Both the position numbers and the translations under genes were made by a program. A stretch of 30,468 nt of DNA from NCBI GenBank assembly GCA_043735865.1, contig JAYTDP010000197.1, positions 1 through 30,468 on the forward strand, given 5' to 3'. This document shows, piece by piece, positions 54-4,123 of the stretch. The first letter of the stretch is position 1, and each line of letters opens with the position of its first letter. The notes under the pieces were generated by a model, which saw only the letters and a list, made by a program, of their open reading frames with translations, ran no database searches and had not been told where the DNA came from. This stretch comes from Bdellovibrionales bacterium. GTDB taxonomy: Bacteria > Bdellovibrionota > Bdellovibrionia > Bdellovibrionales > UBA1609.

Positions 54-527
54 ATGGAAGAAAATCAGGTGTGGAAAAAATGTAGCCGCTGCAAGAACGC
101 AATATCGTATGGTTCGCCTTATTACGTTTGTAGCGTTTCGACATGTAATGGGCAGCGAACTGGGTACGTATTTTGCCGTCACCTCTGTTTTGAAGCCCAT
201 TTGCCGGGTGCACGTCATCGCGACGCGGGCGCTATAGAGCAAAAAGCGCCTTCGTCTGCGGCGCCGGACCGACCTTCGGAGCGAAAAATTATTGCTCCAA
301 AAGCCGCGTCAGTCGGAATGCCCTCGACCCATACATCCGGACCAAAAGAAATTCTAATTATCGCCTCTCGGCTGAAAGAATATATCGACGCCAAAAGCGG
401 ATTTAATACCTCGGGACAAGTGTTAGAAATTCTATCTGACTCTGTCCGAAACCTTTGCGACAGAGCGATAGCGAATGCACGCGAAGACGGCCGCAAAACT
501 GTATTAGACCGAGATTTTAAAAAATGA
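54..527 (+). CDS. Bacterial histone-fold protein with N-terminal ZZ-like zinc finger (ZZ-histone type), 157 aa
   Basis: N-terminal C-x2-C-x12-C-x4-C-x9-C-x3-C-x3-H-x5-H. A Pro/Ser/Ala-rich linker follows. C-terminal EILIIASRLKEYI...FNTSGQVLEILSD...AREDGRKTVLDRDF closely resembles the Bdellovibrio histone Bd0055 pattern (EVLVVTSKVK...NTS...DGRKTVMARD). ATG at 54 is preferred over the TTG at 3. Confidence 0.88.
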   Translation: MEENQVWKKCSRCKNAISYGSPYYVCSVSTCNGQRTGYVFCRHLCFEAHLPGARHRDAGAIEQKAPSSAAPDRPSERKIIAPKAASVGMPSTHTSGPKEILIIASRLKEYIDAKSGFNTSGQVLEILSDSVRNLCDRAIANAREDGRKTVLDRDFKK

Positions 528-1507
528 GGCCGGGCTCTATTCGTAAAATTCTCATCATTCGTTTTTCGAGTCTCGGAGATATCGCGCAAGCTTTTGCCGC
601 CGCCCAGCTTTTAAAAGCGGCGAATCCTCATGCCGAAATTCACTGGGTCACCCGATCCGATTTTACCGAATTTGTCCGCAGAATCCCCAGCGTATCGCGC
701 GTTTGGTCTCTTTTGCGTACCGATGGTGTTTTGGGTCTGTTAAAACTCGGACGAGACTTGAGACGTGAACAGTTTGATCTCGTCTATGACGCTCATTCAA
801 ATATGCGATCATACGTTTTATCGATATTACTTTGTCGCCCAGGGACGCGCACAGTTCGACGATCAAAAGAACGGGTGAAACGCTTCTTACTCTTTACTCT
901 TCGCCGCAATACCTTCGAAAAACCGTACCGAGCGGCATGGTCTTTTGTGATTCCACTTAAAGCATGGATTGAACTTCCGGCCATCTTGCCTACTATTGCC
1001 TGGCAATCGCGCTCAACCAATGTTTCCGTCGCAGATCTTATATTATTTGCGCCGAGCGCCGCGTGGGAGTTGAAAAAGTGGCCGATGGAGTACTGGCGTG
1101 ATTTAATCGGTCTCCTGCCGGATTACAAAATCGGCCTTCTTGGAGGTCCTGATGATAATTTCGATGAGTTGGTGACGGCCGCTCCGAACCGAGTTCAAAA
1201 TTTTGCCGGCAAAATGAATTGGTCTGAAACTGCACAAGCCATTCACGATTGCCTTCTCGTTGTTTCAGCTGACACCGGCGCACTGCACATTGCGGATAAC
1301 TTTAATAAACGATCGATTGCCCTGCTAGGGCCGACCGCCTTCGGATTTCCATCGCGACCGAATTCGACGGTCCTCGACATCGAACTTTGGTGCCGCCCGT
1401 GTACAAAAGACGGGCGCGGCAAATGTATCAACGCCGAATTTAAAAAATGCCTAAAAGATATTCGTCCCGCGGACGTAGCGTCGAAAGTTCAGGAACTTCT
1501 TCAATGA
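524..1507 (+). CDS. Glycosyltransferase family 9 (ADP-heptose:LPS heptosyltransferase, WaaF/RfaF-like)
   Basis: KILIIRFSSLGDI N-terminus, YDAHSNMRS, KKWP, DTGALHIA and ALLGPT are typical GT9 motifs. ATGA overlap with the upstream gene. Confidence 0.9.
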   Translation: MRPGSIRKILIIRFSSLGDIAQAFAAAQLLKAANPHAEIHWVTRSDFTEFVRRIPSVSRVWSLLRTDGVLGLLKLGRDLRREQFDLVYDAHSNMRSYVLSILLCRPGTRTVRRSKERVKRFLLFTLRRNTFEKPYRAAWSFVIPLKAWIELPAILPTIAWQSRSTNVSVADLILFAPSAAWELKKWPMEYWRDLIGLLPDYKIGLLGGPDDNFDELVTAAPNRVQNFAGKMNWSETAQAIHDCLLVVSADTGALHIADNFNKRSIALLGPTAFGFPSRPNSTVLDIELWCRPCTKDGRGKCINAEFKKCLKDIRPADVASKVQELLQ

Positions 1508-2802
1508 TTTACTTTTTCTTTTTACTCTATCGGCTCATTTTCATTCCACTTGCCGCCCTCGCGATTCCGCTTATTGCATTATTTAATTCGAAAGTCCGGA
1601 CCGGCCTCGTGCTACGGATGAAAGTCCGATCGCTCCGCTACCCGCTTAGCGAGCGCCCGTTTTGGATTCACGCTTCGAGCGGTGAATTTGAATACGCAAA
1701 GCCGGTGATTCGCGAGTTGAAAAAGCAATTTCCGACTATTCCGATTCTGGTGACTTACTTTTCGCCTTCTTACAAAGATCAAATCGCCCGGTTCTCAGGC
1801 GTCGATCGCTTCGAACCTCTGCCACTGGACTTGCCCGGGGCCGTCCACAGCTTCCTGGAGTTTCACAAGCCTCGTGCACTCCTCATTGCCCGAACGGATT
1901 TGTGGCCGGAGCTTCTTTGGCAGGTCAGCCGTAAGCGCATACCTTCTCTCCTTTTTTCTCACACGCGCAAAAAATCAACGCCGCTGCTTCATTTTTATTA
2001 TCGAGTCATTTACGCGCTCCTCACCGAAATCTTCGTCGTAAGTGAAAAAGACGCATTCGAAGTCGGCAAAACTTCAGTGAATCCGTTTATGGCCGCCGGT
2101 GACACGCGCTACGATCAGGTTCATTTTCGCTTGGGAGAAGCCAGGCGCCTGCCGGCCACTGTAGAACGCCTCGTTGTCGCCGGTGGCGATTTCGCCGTCA
2201 TAGCAGGGTCGACTTGGGGCGAAGACGAGGACATTCTGTTACCGGCTTTTGCAGCGCTAAAAGAGTTTCCATTTCGCTTCATTTTGGTTCCCCACGAGAC
2301 AGATGAGCACCATCTGTCCACGCTCAAGAAAAAAGCCAGTCACTTAAACCTTATGTTACGCTTCGCCAGTTCGACGGAAGATACACGAGAATCAAGAGTA
2401 AGTGTTATCGACCACAAAGGAGTTCTTGCCGATCTCTATCCTTTGGCGGGAGTCGCTTTCGTCGGCGGATCATTTAAAAAGAAAGTGCACAGCGTGATGG
2501 AAGCACTAGGAGCCGGTAAAATCGTGATCGTGGGCCCATACTATGAAAATAATCGCGAGGCCGTCGAATTTCACGACGTGCTCGTTCACGAGGATATACG
2601 AGCGGTCAATGTCGTGAAAGATTCCAAAGAATTTGAAAGTTTAGTCTTAAAAATTTCCGCATTGAGTCCAGAGTCACGAAAAGCCGCTGAGAACGTCATT
2701 CGGGCGCAGTTTCAGCGCCGCCTTGGTGCCACTGCAAAGGTGATTGACTGGTGCGATTTTCATCTCGAAAATAACGGAACATTCAATATTCCCATTGCAT
2801 AA
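1504..2802 (+). CDS. waaA: 3-deoxy-D-manno-octulosonic acid (Kdo) transferase
   Basis: N-terminal membrane anchor, WIHASSGE, DLWPE, GDTRYD, AGSTW, and AFVGGSF...HSVMEA. The start at 1504 overlaps the upstream stop (ATGA). Confidence 0.88.
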   Translation: MIYFFFLLYRLIFIPLAALAIPLIALFNSKVRTGLVLRMKVRSLRYPLSERPFWIHASSGEFEYAKPVIRELKKQFPTIPILVTYFSPSYKDQIARFSGVDRFEPLPLDLPGAVHSFLEFHKPRALLIARTDLWPELLWQVSRKRIPSLLFSHTRKKSTPLLHFYYRVIYALLTEIFVVSEKDAFEVGKTSVNPFMAAGDTRYDQVHFRLGEARRLPATVERLVVAGGDFAVIAGSTWGEDEDILLPAFAALKEFPFRFILVPHETDEHHLSTLKKKASHLNLMLRFASSTEDTRESRVSVIDHKGVLADLYPLAGVAFVGGSFKKKVHSVMEALGAGKIVIVGPYYENNREAVEFHDVLVHEDIRAVNVVKDSKEFESLVLKISALSPESRKAAENVIRAQFQRRLGATAKVIDWCDFHLENNGTFNIPIA

Positions 2803-2815
2803 AGGAACATAAAAA

Positions 2816-4123
2816 ATGCCGACGTCAACACCGACTCCCTTCGAGCCCATTCGCGAAAAAGCTGGGCTTAACGGTTACAAAAAAGGCGACGTTCTCGTGA
2901 TGTTCGGCGAACTGTTCGCTCGTGGTTACGCCAACGGCATAGTCGACGAAGCAACCAAGTTAGGGATGAAGGTTATTTTTTCTACCGTCGGGCGACGTGA
3001 GCCCGATCAGACTCTTCGACCTCTGAATGCGGCTGAGCTCGCAGAAAAGGACCAACCGTTAATCAATATACCGCTCGAAGCAGGATTCGACCTTGAAGCT
3101 GACTCAAAGGGCGTGCGCCCCGTCGATCAATTAAAAGAATACGGCCTCACCGGTTGGGAATCGGCAAAATTAGATTGGGCCAACATTGAAGAGGCTAAAG
3201 TTCGCGGCCGCGAACGCTTTCGAAAAAACGTCGATGCGTTTTTGCTTGAGGTAAAAAAAATTGTTCCGAACGGCGCCAACGTCTTATTTGTTCACACGAT
3301 GGCAGGCGGCTTTCCTCGAGCCAAAGTCGTAATGCCGATTGCCAATCGCGTCTTCAAAGGTTCGGGTGCACGATTTATGTCGTCGAAGATGTTTTGGGAG
3401 AGCGAGATCGGCAAGCTTTGCGATTTAAGTTTCAGCGAAGTCACTGCCCACACTTTTTCAGAACTCATTGAACGTTCGGCAGAACTCCGCGCGCAAATTG
3501 AAAAGGCCGGCGGGAAGGTCGGATACGCAGCGTATGGATATCACGGCAATGAGGCTCTCATTCATGGAAAATACACCTGGTTTTCTTACTCACCTTACCT
3601 GCAAGGTTGGGCGAAAATGGGTCTTGAAAACATCGCGCGGGACGCCTTTTCGAGAGGTATTAGAGCTTGCGTTTATAACGTGCCAGAGATCTTGACCAAT
3701 TCGTCGAGTATTTTTTTGGGCGTTGAAATCTCCCTTTATTCACTTATTGCAGCCCTGCGAAAGGAACAAGGCAACAGTGATAAAGTGAAAGGCGTTATCA
3801 CAAAATGCGAAGCGCTTCTTAAAGACGGACACACCTATCAAGATGTCGAGAGAGTCACGAGTCAGTATCTCGAAAATCCCGCAGTGCTCAACTTTCCGAA
3901 GTTTGAAAATTGGCCGCAGCACAATGGACCGGAGCAAATGGAACTGATGCGCCAAACATCCACCGCAATGCTCGAGATGCACAAGGATCAAAAAAATCTG
4001 TTAACGGCCGAATTGAGTGAAATTGTATTTCGCGCCTGCGGTGAAGTCATGTTAGCTGAAGCCTTTGGGCCACGAGGGCCCGCCCTATGGGTCGGACATG
4101 ATCTCGTGGCGAAATGCTTTTAA
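2816..4123 (+). CDS. fabMG: Probable FabMG-family enoyl-ACP reductase
   Basis: KKGDVLVMFGELFARGYANG, TVGRR, PLEAGFD, HTMAGGFPRAK, AYGYHG, YLQGWAK, PEILTNSS and WVGHD match my recollection of the FabMG family. SD-like AAGGA lies upstream. Not confirmed by search. Confidence 0.65.
   Translation: MPTSTPTPFEPIREKAGLNGYKKGDVLVMFGELFARGYANGIVDEATKLGMKVIFSTVGRREPDQTLRPLNAAELAEKDQPLINIPLEAGFDLEADSKGVRPVDQLKEYGLTGWESAKLDWANIEEAKVRGRERFRKNVDAFLLEVKKIVPNGANVLFVHTMAGGFPRAKVVMPIANRVFKGSGARFMSSKMFWESEIGKLCDLSFSEVTAHTFSELIERSAELRAQIEKAGGKVGYAAYGYHGNEALIHGKYTWFSYSPYLQGWAKMGLENIARDAFSRGIRACVYNVPEILTNSSSIFLGVEISLYSLIAALRKEQGNSDKVKGVITKCEALLKDGHTYQDVERVTSQYLENPAVLNFPKFENWPQHNGPEQMELMRQTSTAMLEMHKDQKNLLTAELSEIVFRACGEVMLAEAFGPRGPALWVGHDLVAKCF

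What the first reader, a model, noticed from the sequence alone, without database searches (positions are those of the whole stretch)
54..527. Bacterial histone fused to a ZZ-like zinc finger
Seen: a six-Cys/two-His double zinc finger (81-218), a low-complexity linker, then a histone fold (about 345-524) ending in GRKTVLDRDF. That ending is the R-x-T-x4-D L2-loop motif of archaeal and bacterial histones. Established: Bdellovibrio encodes histone-fold chromatin proteins (Bd0055), prokaryotic ZZ-histones are a reported but functionally uncharacterised class, and some eukaryotic ZZ domains read histone N-termini. Inference: this may be a histone variant with a built-in reader or protein-interaction module that heterodimerises with the main histone.
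Basis: partly seen in the sequence, partly recalled or inferred. Interest (0 to 1): 0.8.

Follow-up and report, generated by a model that had tools for sequence, protein, structure and literature searches.

The report
Zinc-finger ("ZZ") bacterial histone gene
This gene encodes a small protein of a predatory-bacteria lineage that joins a two-zinc finger to a Bdellovibrio-type mini-histone; it is a clear but ordinary member of the "ZZ histone" class catalogued in 2024, and I found no bench study of what that class does.

Summary
Window 54-527 (+) encodes a 157-aa protein with three parts:
- a cross-brace zinc finger with eight invariant ligands (C10, C13, C26, C31, C41, C45, H49, H55);
- a disordered Ser/Ala/Pro linker;
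- a C-terminal short-alpha3 histone fold, 38% identical to HBb/Bd0055, with the RxTxxxxD motif.

It belongs to a family of more than 2,000 proteins from Bdellovibrionota. This is the "ZZ histone" class of Schwab et al. 2024; by elimination, its B. bacteriovorus member is Bd3044. This scan has already reported the class at least seven times on other DNA.

My best reading: the histone fold homodimerises (ipSAE 0.85, best control 0.00) and binds and bends DNA as HBb does, since 9 of 11 HBb DNA-contact residues are kept. The two basic fingers on flexible linkers add a second binding activity.

- in 11 near-complete genomes this fused histone fold is the only one found;
- relatives exist with two tandem histone folds, and others with the finger alone;
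- Schwab et al. report that the eukaryotic peptide pocket is not conserved.

The overlap with the downstream LPS genes is lineage-specific. Verdict: a new member of a known, untested class, of modest interest.

The parts
54..527 (+). Complete CDS of the ZZ histone (157 aa plus TGA stop)
   Evidence: ORF list and translation. Homologues are full length at 56-77% identity. The contig starts only 53 nt upstream, so the promoter is not in the window.
66..251 (+). N-terminal ZZ-like cross-brace zinc-finger domain (residues 5-66). Zn ligands are C10, C13, C41, C45 (C4 site) and C26, C31, H49, H55 (C2H2 site). Ligand span is nt 81-218.
   Evidence: Eight invariant ligands in 62 sequences. pLDDT is 90-96 in the full model and 85.6 when folded alone. 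The best non-family fold matches are eukaryotic ZZ domains, but weakly. The assignment of ligands to the two sites follows Schwab et al. and was not measured on the model. Net charge is +6.
252..344 (+). Disordered Ser/Ala/Pro linker (residues 67-97), with a semi-conserved basic-hydrophobic motif P-x-R-[RKI]-[IV]-[VI] (here S75-E76-R77-K78-I79-I80, nt 276-293)
   Evidence: pLDDT 50-66. Linker length in the family is 18-89 aa. R77 is present in 49 of 62 sequences, and I/V/L at position 79 in 50 of 62.
345..524 (+). C-terminal short-alpha3 histone fold of the HBb type (residues 98-157): alpha1 104-115, alpha2 121-144, one-turn alpha3 152-155. RxTxxxxD is R147..D154 (nt 492-515).
   Evidence: phmmer against PDB: HBb at E 4e-10. 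Foldseek: HBb at TM 0.84-0.89, rmsd 1.1-1.2 A. NCBIfam archaea_histone is weak, E 0.0025. Homodimer is predicted at ipSAE 0.85 against 0.00 for the best control.
524..527 (+). ATGA overlap: the stop of the ZZ histone gene overlaps the start of a family-9 glycosyltransferase gene. That gene is followed by a Kdo transferase gene and a FabMG gene.
   Evidence: Sequence and Pfam on the neighbours. The arrangement is not conserved: the closest relative has a DUF3095 gene in between, Bdellovibrio has other neighbours, and no shared neighbour appears in 15 loci.

Best explanation
The gene encodes a ZZ histone, a minor nucleoid-associated protein of Bdellovibrionota. B. bacteriovorus Bd3044 is inferred, by elimination, to be the member of this family in that species.

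Shown by computation here: a two-zinc cross-brace finger, a flexible linker and an HBb-type histone fold, with the fold predicted to homodimerise.

Inferred:
- The histone-fold homodimer binds DNA without sequence preference through backbone and minor-groove contacts and bends it, as HBb does.
- This fold is less basic than HBb (net 0 against about +3 over the aligned 58 residues). The two basic fingers (+6 each) and a basic linker motif, held on 30-residue tethers, therefore supply a second binding activity.
- That second activity is most likely extra contacts with nucleic acid or another acidic ligand, which would strengthen, bridge or target binding. It is unlikely to be reading of a histone N-terminus.
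- The finger is an autonomous module. Relatives carry it alone, with one histone fold or with two.
For: Family and class:
- 2,276 homologues, all from Bdellovibrio or Bdellovibrionota where a name is given.
- Schwab et al. 2024 define this architecture as ZZ histones, with the same ligand positions C10, C13, C41 / C26, C31, H49, H55.
- Hocher et al. 2023 describe Bd3044 as the longer second histone, present in 37% of Bdellovibrionota genomes. Here 14 of 40 relatives carry the long form.

Histone fold: E 4e-10 and rmsd 1.2 A to HBb.

DNA-contact residues listed for HBb (T8, S9, K10, K12, K16, N22, T23, S24, K52, T53, R57) map with an offset of +96 to A104, S105, R106, K108, D112, N118, T119, S120, K148, T149, R153. 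Nine of 11 are kept here. Across 62 members the counts are: S105 60/62, K/R106 62/62, K108 58/62, N118 61/62, T119 59/62, S120 59/62, K/R148 58/62, T149 61/62, R153 62/62. The RD clamp R147-D154 is invariant.

Homodimer: ipSAE 0.85, best of 3 controls 0.00. The mark was reached by 21 of 30 proteins solved as pairs of one chain and 0 of 23 solved as single chains. Relatives with ZZ plus two tandem histone folds also exist.

Finger: mean net charge +4.5 across the family. Conserved basic residues lie at positions 8, 9, 14, 15, 35, 54 and 56.

Autonomy of the finger: stand-alone forms of 65-97 aa exist, and there is almost always one copy per genome, fused or not.

Expression in B. bacteriovorus: low abundance, with bd3044 and bd0055 both peaking late in the growth phase.
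Against: - I found no experimental study of any ZZ histone in the library searched.
- The histone fold has net charge 0, and two HBb contact positions differ (T8->A104, K16->D112), so DNA affinity may be low.
- The homodimer pass may come from the model's memory of solved HBb dimers.
- The ZZ fold assignment is weak: Foldseek E 0.04-1.5, VIA Z <= 4.8, with RING, B-box and ribosomal zinc ribbons scoring alike.
- No ligand of the finger is known, and nucleic-acid binding by it is pure inference from charge.
Confidence: 0.6

Rival explanations
1. One reading: a histone variant whose fold heterodimerises with the abundant histone HBb. The ZZ finger then acts as a reader or protein-interaction module on chromatin, by analogy with the eukaryotic ZZ domains of p300, HERC2 and ZZZ3.
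For: - HBb-type and ZZ-type genes co-occur in 12 of the 14 relatives that have the ZZ type, including the same-genus genome.
- The two folds are 38% identical and superpose at 1.2 A.
- bd0055 and bd3044 peak together late in growth.
- The nearest solved folds of the finger are peptide-N-terminus-binding ZZ domains.
Against: - Eleven near-complete genomes have the ZZ-fused fold as their only histone fold, and 50% of proteomes in Schwab et al. have no second histone.
- ZZ proteins with two tandem histone folds exist.
- The homodimer is predicted confidently.
- Stand-alone fingers occur in genomes with no histone-fold match at all: G044, G052 and G061.
- The eukaryotic pocket residues are not conserved, and the finger is basic.
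- HBb aligns from its fourth residue, so it has almost no N-terminal tail to read.
Confidence: 0.15
2. Not a chromatin protein. The histone fold serves only as a dimerisation scaffold, as in TAFs or DUF1931 proteins, for a finger that works in protein-protein or RNA interactions unrelated to genome organisation.
For: - The finger exists alone and is kept at one copy per genome with or without the fold.
- The fold has net charge 0.
- Abundance is low in B. bacteriovorus.
- Schwab et al. caution that some prokaryotic histone-fold proteins may have other roles.
Against: The HBb DNA-contact set and RD clamp are almost invariant over 62 divergent sequences. A mere dimerisation scaffold would not need this.
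Confidence: 0.15
3. A locus-specific regulator co-translated with the envelope genes downstream (family-9 glycosyltransferase, Kdo transferase, FabMG), linking chromosome state to LPS synthesis.
For: The ATGA overlap at 524-527 and the tight same-strand array. The closest relative keeps the gene upstream of the same three genes.
Against: In that relative a DUF3095 gene lies in between. In Bdellovibrio and in 11 other relatives' loci the neighbours differ, and no neighbour family recurs in 3 or more of 15 loci.
Confidence: 0.05

Closest known systems
ZZ histones (alpha3-histone subfamily of Schwab et al. 2024, Nat Commun 15:7950, PMC11390915). Example D0LYE7 of Haliangium ochraceum. In B. bacteriovorus HD100 the second, longer histone Bd3044 (Hocher et al. 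2023, PMC10627809).
   Same: Same architecture and the same ligand positions in the family profile: an N-terminal C4 plus C2H2 finger, a linker, and a C-terminal 'bacterial-dimer-like' histone fold with RxTxxxxD. Same phylum-level distribution: 37% of Bdellovibrionota genomes in Hocher et al., against 14 of 40 relatives here.
   Different: Nothing of substance. In this clade the fourth ligand of the C4 site is C45 (C-x3-C), whereas the paper lists C43. Position 43 is His here and Val in most members. That Bd3044 is the ZZ histone of HD100 is inferred by elimination from two papers, not shown by sequence here.
HBb / Bd0055 of Bdellovibrio bacteriovorus ('bacterial dimer' histones; PDB 8cmp, 8fvx, 8fw7, 9ezz, 9f0e)
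   Same: Histone fold with a short alpha2 and a one-turn alpha3. 38% identity, rmsd 1.1-1.2 A. RD clamp and 9 of 11 DNA-contact residues are kept. A dimer is predicted.
   Different: HBb is a 60-66 aa singlet, abundant and probably essential. This protein has a 97-residue N-terminal extension with a zinc finger and a less basic fold (0 against about +3). Its B. bacteriovorus counterpart is of low abundance.
Eukaryotic ZZ-type zinc fingers (Pfam PF00569; p62/SQSTM1, HERC2, p300/CBP, ZZZ3, KCMF1, PRT1, BIG)
   Same: Cross-brace two-zinc fold of about 50-60 residues. These are the best non-family structural matches in PDB and in AlphaFold DB clusters: TM 0.5-0.6, probability up to 0.97-0.99.
   Different: No sequence-level match. 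No PF00569 hit was listed for any of 62 members, and the family profile finds no ZZ chain in the PDB. Spacing differs: C-x4-C in the second pair and C-x3-C in the third. The surface is basic, and Schwab et al. report that the N-terminus-binding pocket is not conserved. VIA Z scores (<= 4.8) do not separate ZZ from RING, B-box, HIT and ribosomal zinc ribbons.

Membership tests
ZZ histones (Schwab et al. 2024) | N-terminal domain with two zinc sites, C4 and C2H2 | tested here: met
   C10, C13, C26, C31, C41, C45, H49 and H55 are invariant in 62 sequences that fall to 35% identity. These are the same positions as the published profile, except C45 in place of C43.
ZZ histones (Schwab et al. 2024) | C-terminal alpha3-truncated, bacterial-dimer-like histone fold with RxTxxxxD | tested here: met
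   E 4e-10 to HBb. TM 0.84-0.89 and rmsd 1.2 A. R147, T149 and D154 are present and conserved.
ZZ histones (Schwab et al. 2024) | The finger has a ZZ-like three-dimensional fold | tested here: inconclusive
   The top Foldseek PDB and AFDB non-family hits are nearly all ZZ domains, but at E 0.04-1.5 and TM 0.45-0.6. VIA Z <= 4.8, mixed with other small zinc folds.
ZZ histones (Schwab et al. 2024) | Binds two zinc ions per chain | not testable with these tools
   Needs metal analysis of purified protein.
Pfam ZZ (PF00569) | Sequence match to the ZZ profile above the gathering score | tested here: not met
   No Pfam hit on this protein except PADR1 at E 4.7. PF00569 is not among the 25 listed of 29 families matched at E <= 0.1 by the 62 members.
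Pfam ZZ (PF00569) | Acidic pocket that binds a peptide N-terminus (p62, HERC2, p300, ZZZ3) | tested here: inconclusive
   The conserved acidic positions of the finger (47, 57, 62) all lie C-terminal to C45, and none lies beside the first two Cys pairs. The domain is basic, net +6. Schwab et al. state that the pocket residues are not conserved. No residue-level structural alignment was available to me.
HBb-type 'bacterial dimer' histones | Forms a histone-fold dimer | tested here: met
   Prediction only: ipSAE 0.85, best of 3 controls 0.00. The mark was reached by 21 of 30 solved one-chain pairs and 0 of 23 single chains. The pass may reflect memory of solved HBb dimers.
HBb-type 'bacterial dimer' histones | DNA-contact residues and RD clamp of HBb | tested here: met
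   Nine of 11 contact residues are kept (A104 and D112 differ). R147-D154 and D145 are kept.
HBb-type 'bacterial dimer' histones | Binds and bends DNA; abundant nucleoid constituent | not testable with these tools
   Needs EMSA or tethered-particle assays, localisation and proteomics. The B. bacteriovorus ZZ histone is reported to be of low abundance.
HBb-type 'bacterial dimer' histones | Single-domain protein of about 60-70 aa | tested here: not met
   157 aa with a 97-residue N-terminal extension.

The most novel reading that the evidence does not exclude
The conserved unit is the basic two-zinc finger, not the histone fold. It is kept at one copy per genome in about half of the Bdellovibrionota sampled. 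It occurs alone (65-97 aa), with a linker only, with one histone fold or with two. So it would recognise a conserved cellular ligand, either a nucleic-acid structure or an acidic partner. ZZ histones would then be adaptors that tether that ligand to bent DNA, and in some lineages they would also be the cell's only histone.
Probability: 0.25. Interest if true: 0.55.

Novelty: new member of a known kind. Interest (0 to 1): 0.3.

Why it matters
Bacterial histones were shown to be real chromatin proteins only in 2023-2025, and only the singlet types HBb and HLp have been studied. I found no bench study of the ZZ subclass, although culturable Bdellovibrio carries one. This copy adds no new kind of protein. 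The comparison made here does narrow the question:
- The fold is expected to self-pair and to keep HBb's DNA contacts.
- In at least 11 near-complete genomes it is the only histone fold found.
- The finger looks like an autonomous basic module and not like a eukaryote-style tail reader.

These points turn a vague 'reader-histone' idea into a few cheap bench tests on Bd3044.

Tried and rejected
- **Sequence link of the finger to known domains.** Pfam and NCBIfam on the protein gave only a sub-threshold archaeal-histone hit and nothing for the finger. Pfam on 62 members listed no ZZ hit. A profile of the finger against all PDB sequences gave only chance hits, such as cytochrome c3 at E 0.15. The ESM Atlas feature search on the finger gave scores under 0.9: short Myxococcota hypothetical proteins, DUF3330 and zf-FCS. 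These are leads only.
- **A histone partner in the own genome.** No HBb-type gene was found with the protein, PF00808 or NF043032. The assembly is only 82% complete, so this is not evidence of absence.
- **Conserved operon.** Rejected.
The only internal Met before the fold, M89, is not conserved (position 89), and no other aligned sequence has a Met there. No support in this clade.
- **In-frame stops reported inside histone-fold matches of several genomes**. In the two loci read (L025 and L026) the stop is the natural stop codon, read through at the end of the profile.
- **Heterodimer with HBb** was not modelled. Only one complex job was allowed, and any two HBb-like folds would probably pass against unrelated controls, so it would not discriminate.

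Full report
**1. What is in the sequence**

Window 54..527 (+) is an open frame of 157 codons ending in TGA. A longer frame from TTG at position 3 exists. Homologues start at the Met that matches ATG 54, and M1 aligns in 61 of 62 sequences. The contig begins at window position 1, so only 53 nt of upstream sequence is available.

- nt 81-218 are codons 10-55, from C10 to H55;
- nt 345-524 are codons 98-157;
- GRKTVLDRDF is residues 146-155;
- R147-K-T149-V-L-D-R-D154 is the RxTxxxxD motif.

**2. It is a real, conserved gene**

A word-indexed search found 2,276 homologues at E <= 1e-3. The 120 listed are 149-203 aa long and 51-77% identical. Where a source gives a name, it is Bdellovibrio, Bdellovibrionales or Bdellovibrionota. 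An exhaustive HMMER search of 50%-identity representatives found 652 clusters, 49 of them at E <= 1e-30.

In an alignment of 62 diverse members (down to 35% identity) the invariant residues are C10, C13, C26, C31, C41, C45, H49, H55, L127, R147, R153 and D154. H43 of this copy is not conserved; most members have Val there.

**3. The C-terminal domain is an HBb-type histone fold**

- Residues 98-155 match HBb/Bd0055 (8cmp, 8fvx) at E 4e-10, and the Leptospira histone HLp at 3e-5.
- The AlphaFold2 model has mean pLDDT 84. It shows helices 104-115 and 121-144 and a one-turn helix 152-155.
- It superposes on HBb at rmsd 1.1-1.2 A over 56-57 columns, with TM by target 0.84-0.89.
- Hu et al. 2024 list the DNA-contacting residues of HBb as T8, S9, K10, K12, K16, N22, T23, S24, K52, T53 and R57, and the RD clamp as R51-D58 with D49. 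With the offset of +96 taken from the alignment, these map to A104, S105, R106, K108, D112, N118, T119, S120, K148, T149 and R153, and to R147-D154 with D145.
- Nine of the 11 contact residues are kept here. Those nine positions are kept in 58-62 of 62 family members.
- The fold is less basic than HBb. Counting residues in the aligned 58 positions gives net 0 here and about +3 for HBb (my own count).

**4. The N-terminal domain is a two-zinc cross-brace finger, best described as ZZ-like**

- The spacing is C-x2-C-x12-C-x4-C-x9-C-x3-C-x3-H-x5-H.
- The domain is modelled confidently: pLDDT 90-96 in the full model and 85.6 when folded alone. It has three short strands, a helix at 43-53 and a closing strand at 60-64.
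- By sequence it matches nothing known. There is no Pfam hit, no PF00569 among the families listed for the 62 members, and no PDB chain found by the family profile.
- By structure, the best solved matches are almost all ZZ domains: p62 (5yph, E 0.044, TM 0.59), then KCMF1, BIG, HERC2, p300, PRT1 and MIB1. MYND and LIM domains appear among the weaker hits.
- In AlphaFold DB clusters, five clusters belong to the family itself. Most of the named hits after them are eukaryotic 'ZZ-type domain-containing' proteins.
- An exhaustive VIA search gave Z <= 4.8, with ZZ (Ada2, Nbr1, ZZZ3, p62, HERC2, CPEB1, CBP) mixed with RING, U-box, B-box, HIT and ribosomal zinc ribbons.

The ZZ label is therefore the best available fold name, not a statistically firm one.

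The domain is basic: net +6 here and +4.5 on average across the family. Conserved basic residues lie at positions 8, 9, 14, 15, 35, 54 and 56. The conserved acidic positions are 47, 57 and 62, all C-terminal to C45.

**5. Linker**

Residues 67-97 are rich in Ser, Ala and Pro and are modelled as disordered. Linker length ranges from 18 to 89 aa in the family. One motif recurs about 20 residues before alpha1: P-x-R-[RKI]-[IV]-[VI], here S75-E76-R77-K78-I79-I80. I read it as a possible extra DNA anchor. This is inference only.

**6. It is already a named class**

Schwab et al. 2024 define 'ZZ histones' as an N-terminal ZZ-type finger (a C4 and a C2H2 site, at profile positions C10, C13, C41, C43 / C26, C31, H49, H55) plus a bacterial-dimer-like histone fold. 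They make four further points:
- the fold resembles the ZZ domains of HERC2, p300 and ZZZ3;
- the eukaryotic pocket residues are not conserved;
- only 50% of proteomes with a ZZ histone have a second histone;
- the B. bacteriovorus copy is weakly expressed.

Hocher et al. 2023 name the two B. bacteriovorus histones. Bd0055 is abundant. Bd3044 is longer, less conserved and present in 37% of Bdellovibrionota genomes. By elimination, Bd3044 is the ZZ histone; this is my inference.

A 2025 preprint reports that bd0055 and bd3044 both peak late in the growth phase. A review states that both genes are essential. The passages of Hocher et al. that I read report deletion attempts only for bd0055.

I found no experimental study of a ZZ histone. 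This scan has reported the class at least seven times on other DNA, each time with the same verdict.

**7.

(a) Partner in the own genome. No HBb-type gene was found in this assembly with three different queries. The assembly is 82% complete in 350 contigs, and the same-genus genome G001 has both genes.

(b) Distribution across the phylum. Among 40 relatives, almost all have a short HBb-type gene and 14 have the long ZZ type. Two of those 14, both 99% complete, showed no short gene.
- In a 201-genome sample of the phylum, the finger was found in 102 genomes, with more than one match in only two of them.
- A histone fold was found in 170 genomes.
- In 11 genomes that are 92-99% complete, the single histone-fold match lies next to the finger match on the same strand and contig. 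These are G085, G115, G206, G213, G086, G158, G183, G110, G165, G176 and G215.
- An obligate heterodimer with a main histone is therefore excluded for those lineages.

(c) Tandem forms. Twelve of the 150 listed representative clusters carry the finger plus two tandem histone folds. This shows that folds of this family pair with each other.

(d) Homodimer prediction. Residues 95-157 scored ipSAE 0.85 against 0.00 for the best of three controls. The mark was reached by 21 of 30 proteins solved as one-chain pairs and by 0 of 23 solved as single chains. The pass may reflect memory of solved HBb dimers.

(e) Stand-alone fingers. Proteins of 65-97 aa that end just after the conserved A-P motif occur in complete contigs (L019-L022). 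Three genomes with such a finger had no histone-fold match at all: G044, G052 and G061. One locus encodes the finger plus linker with no fold (L029).

Taken together, the fold is expected to self-pair, and the finger works as an autonomous module.

**8. Genomic context**

The stop codon overlaps the ATG of a family-9 glycosyltransferase gene (ATGA at 524-527). Genes for a Kdo transferase and a FabMG enoyl reductase follow. The closest relative (77% identity) has the same genes with a DUF3095 gene inserted after the histone gene. Bdellovibrio has unrelated neighbours. No neighbour family recurs in 3 or more of 15 loci. The coupling is therefore lineage-specific and gives no general functional link.

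**9. Verdict**

The identification as a ZZ histone is supported. The heterodimer and tail-reader mechanism is not supported.

The most likely mechanism is a low-abundance, homodimeric, HBb-like DNA-bending protein whose two tethered basic zinc fingers add a second binding activity. Identity is close to certain (about 0.95). The mechanism is inferred (about 0.5-0.6).

This is a new member of a known but experimentally untested kind, of modest interest.

Noticed in passing
P0121, P0123, P0124, P0127, P0129, P0131, P0134, P0135, P0137, P0139, P0150, P0154 (representative proteins, not in the window): Relatives of 216-274 aa carry the zinc finger followed by two tandem histone folds ('ZZ doublet histones'). 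The main text of Schwab et al. 2024 contains none of 'doublet', 'tandem' or 'pseudodimer' outside its reference list. Twelve further representatives have two folds and no finger, and may be truncated at the 5' end.
   Followed up: partly
L019:2971-3198 (+), L020:2992-3219 (-), L021:2932-3225 (+), L022:2952-3149 (+): Stand-alone versions of the finger, 65-97 aa, end just after the conserved A-P motif and have no histone fold nearby. Three genomes of this kind (G044, G052, G061) have no histone-fold match at all. The finger is almost always present in one copy per genome, fused or alone.
   Followed up: partly
L029 (G202:C22:15000-16000, minus strand): A 115-aa protein with the finger and a linker that includes the basic-hydrophobic motif, but no histone fold. 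The only histone-fold match of that genome is on another contig.
   Followed up: no
L028 (G133:C11:70900-71700), and genus g65: Within one genus, some genomes have the fused ZZ histone as their only histone-fold match (G085, G115, G206, G213). Others have only a roughly 66-aa singlet whose fold scores as high as ZZ-type folds (E about 1e-33) and have no finger (G064, G133, G147, G186). This suggests recent gain or loss of the finger and a fuzzy border between 'bacterial dimer' and ZZ histones.
   Followed up: partly
L027 (G083:C437:12000-12800): Finger and histone fold lie next to each other but in different reading frames. This is a frameshift, a split gene or an assembly error in a fragmented assembly of about 480 contigs.
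   Followed up: no
window 524-4123, and L015:3012-4163: The window's ZZ histone gene overlaps the start of a family-9 glycosyltransferase gene, followed by genes for a Kdo transferase and FabMG. The closest relative has an extra DUF3095 gene between the histone gene and the glycosyltransferase gene, so one lineage gained or lost that gene.
   Followed up: partly
Literature: PMC11318664 against PMC10627809: A 2023 review states that both Bd0055 and Bd3044 are essential. The passages of the cited primary paper that I read describe deletion attempts only for bd0055, and say only that Bd3044 cannot readily compensate.
   Followed up: partly
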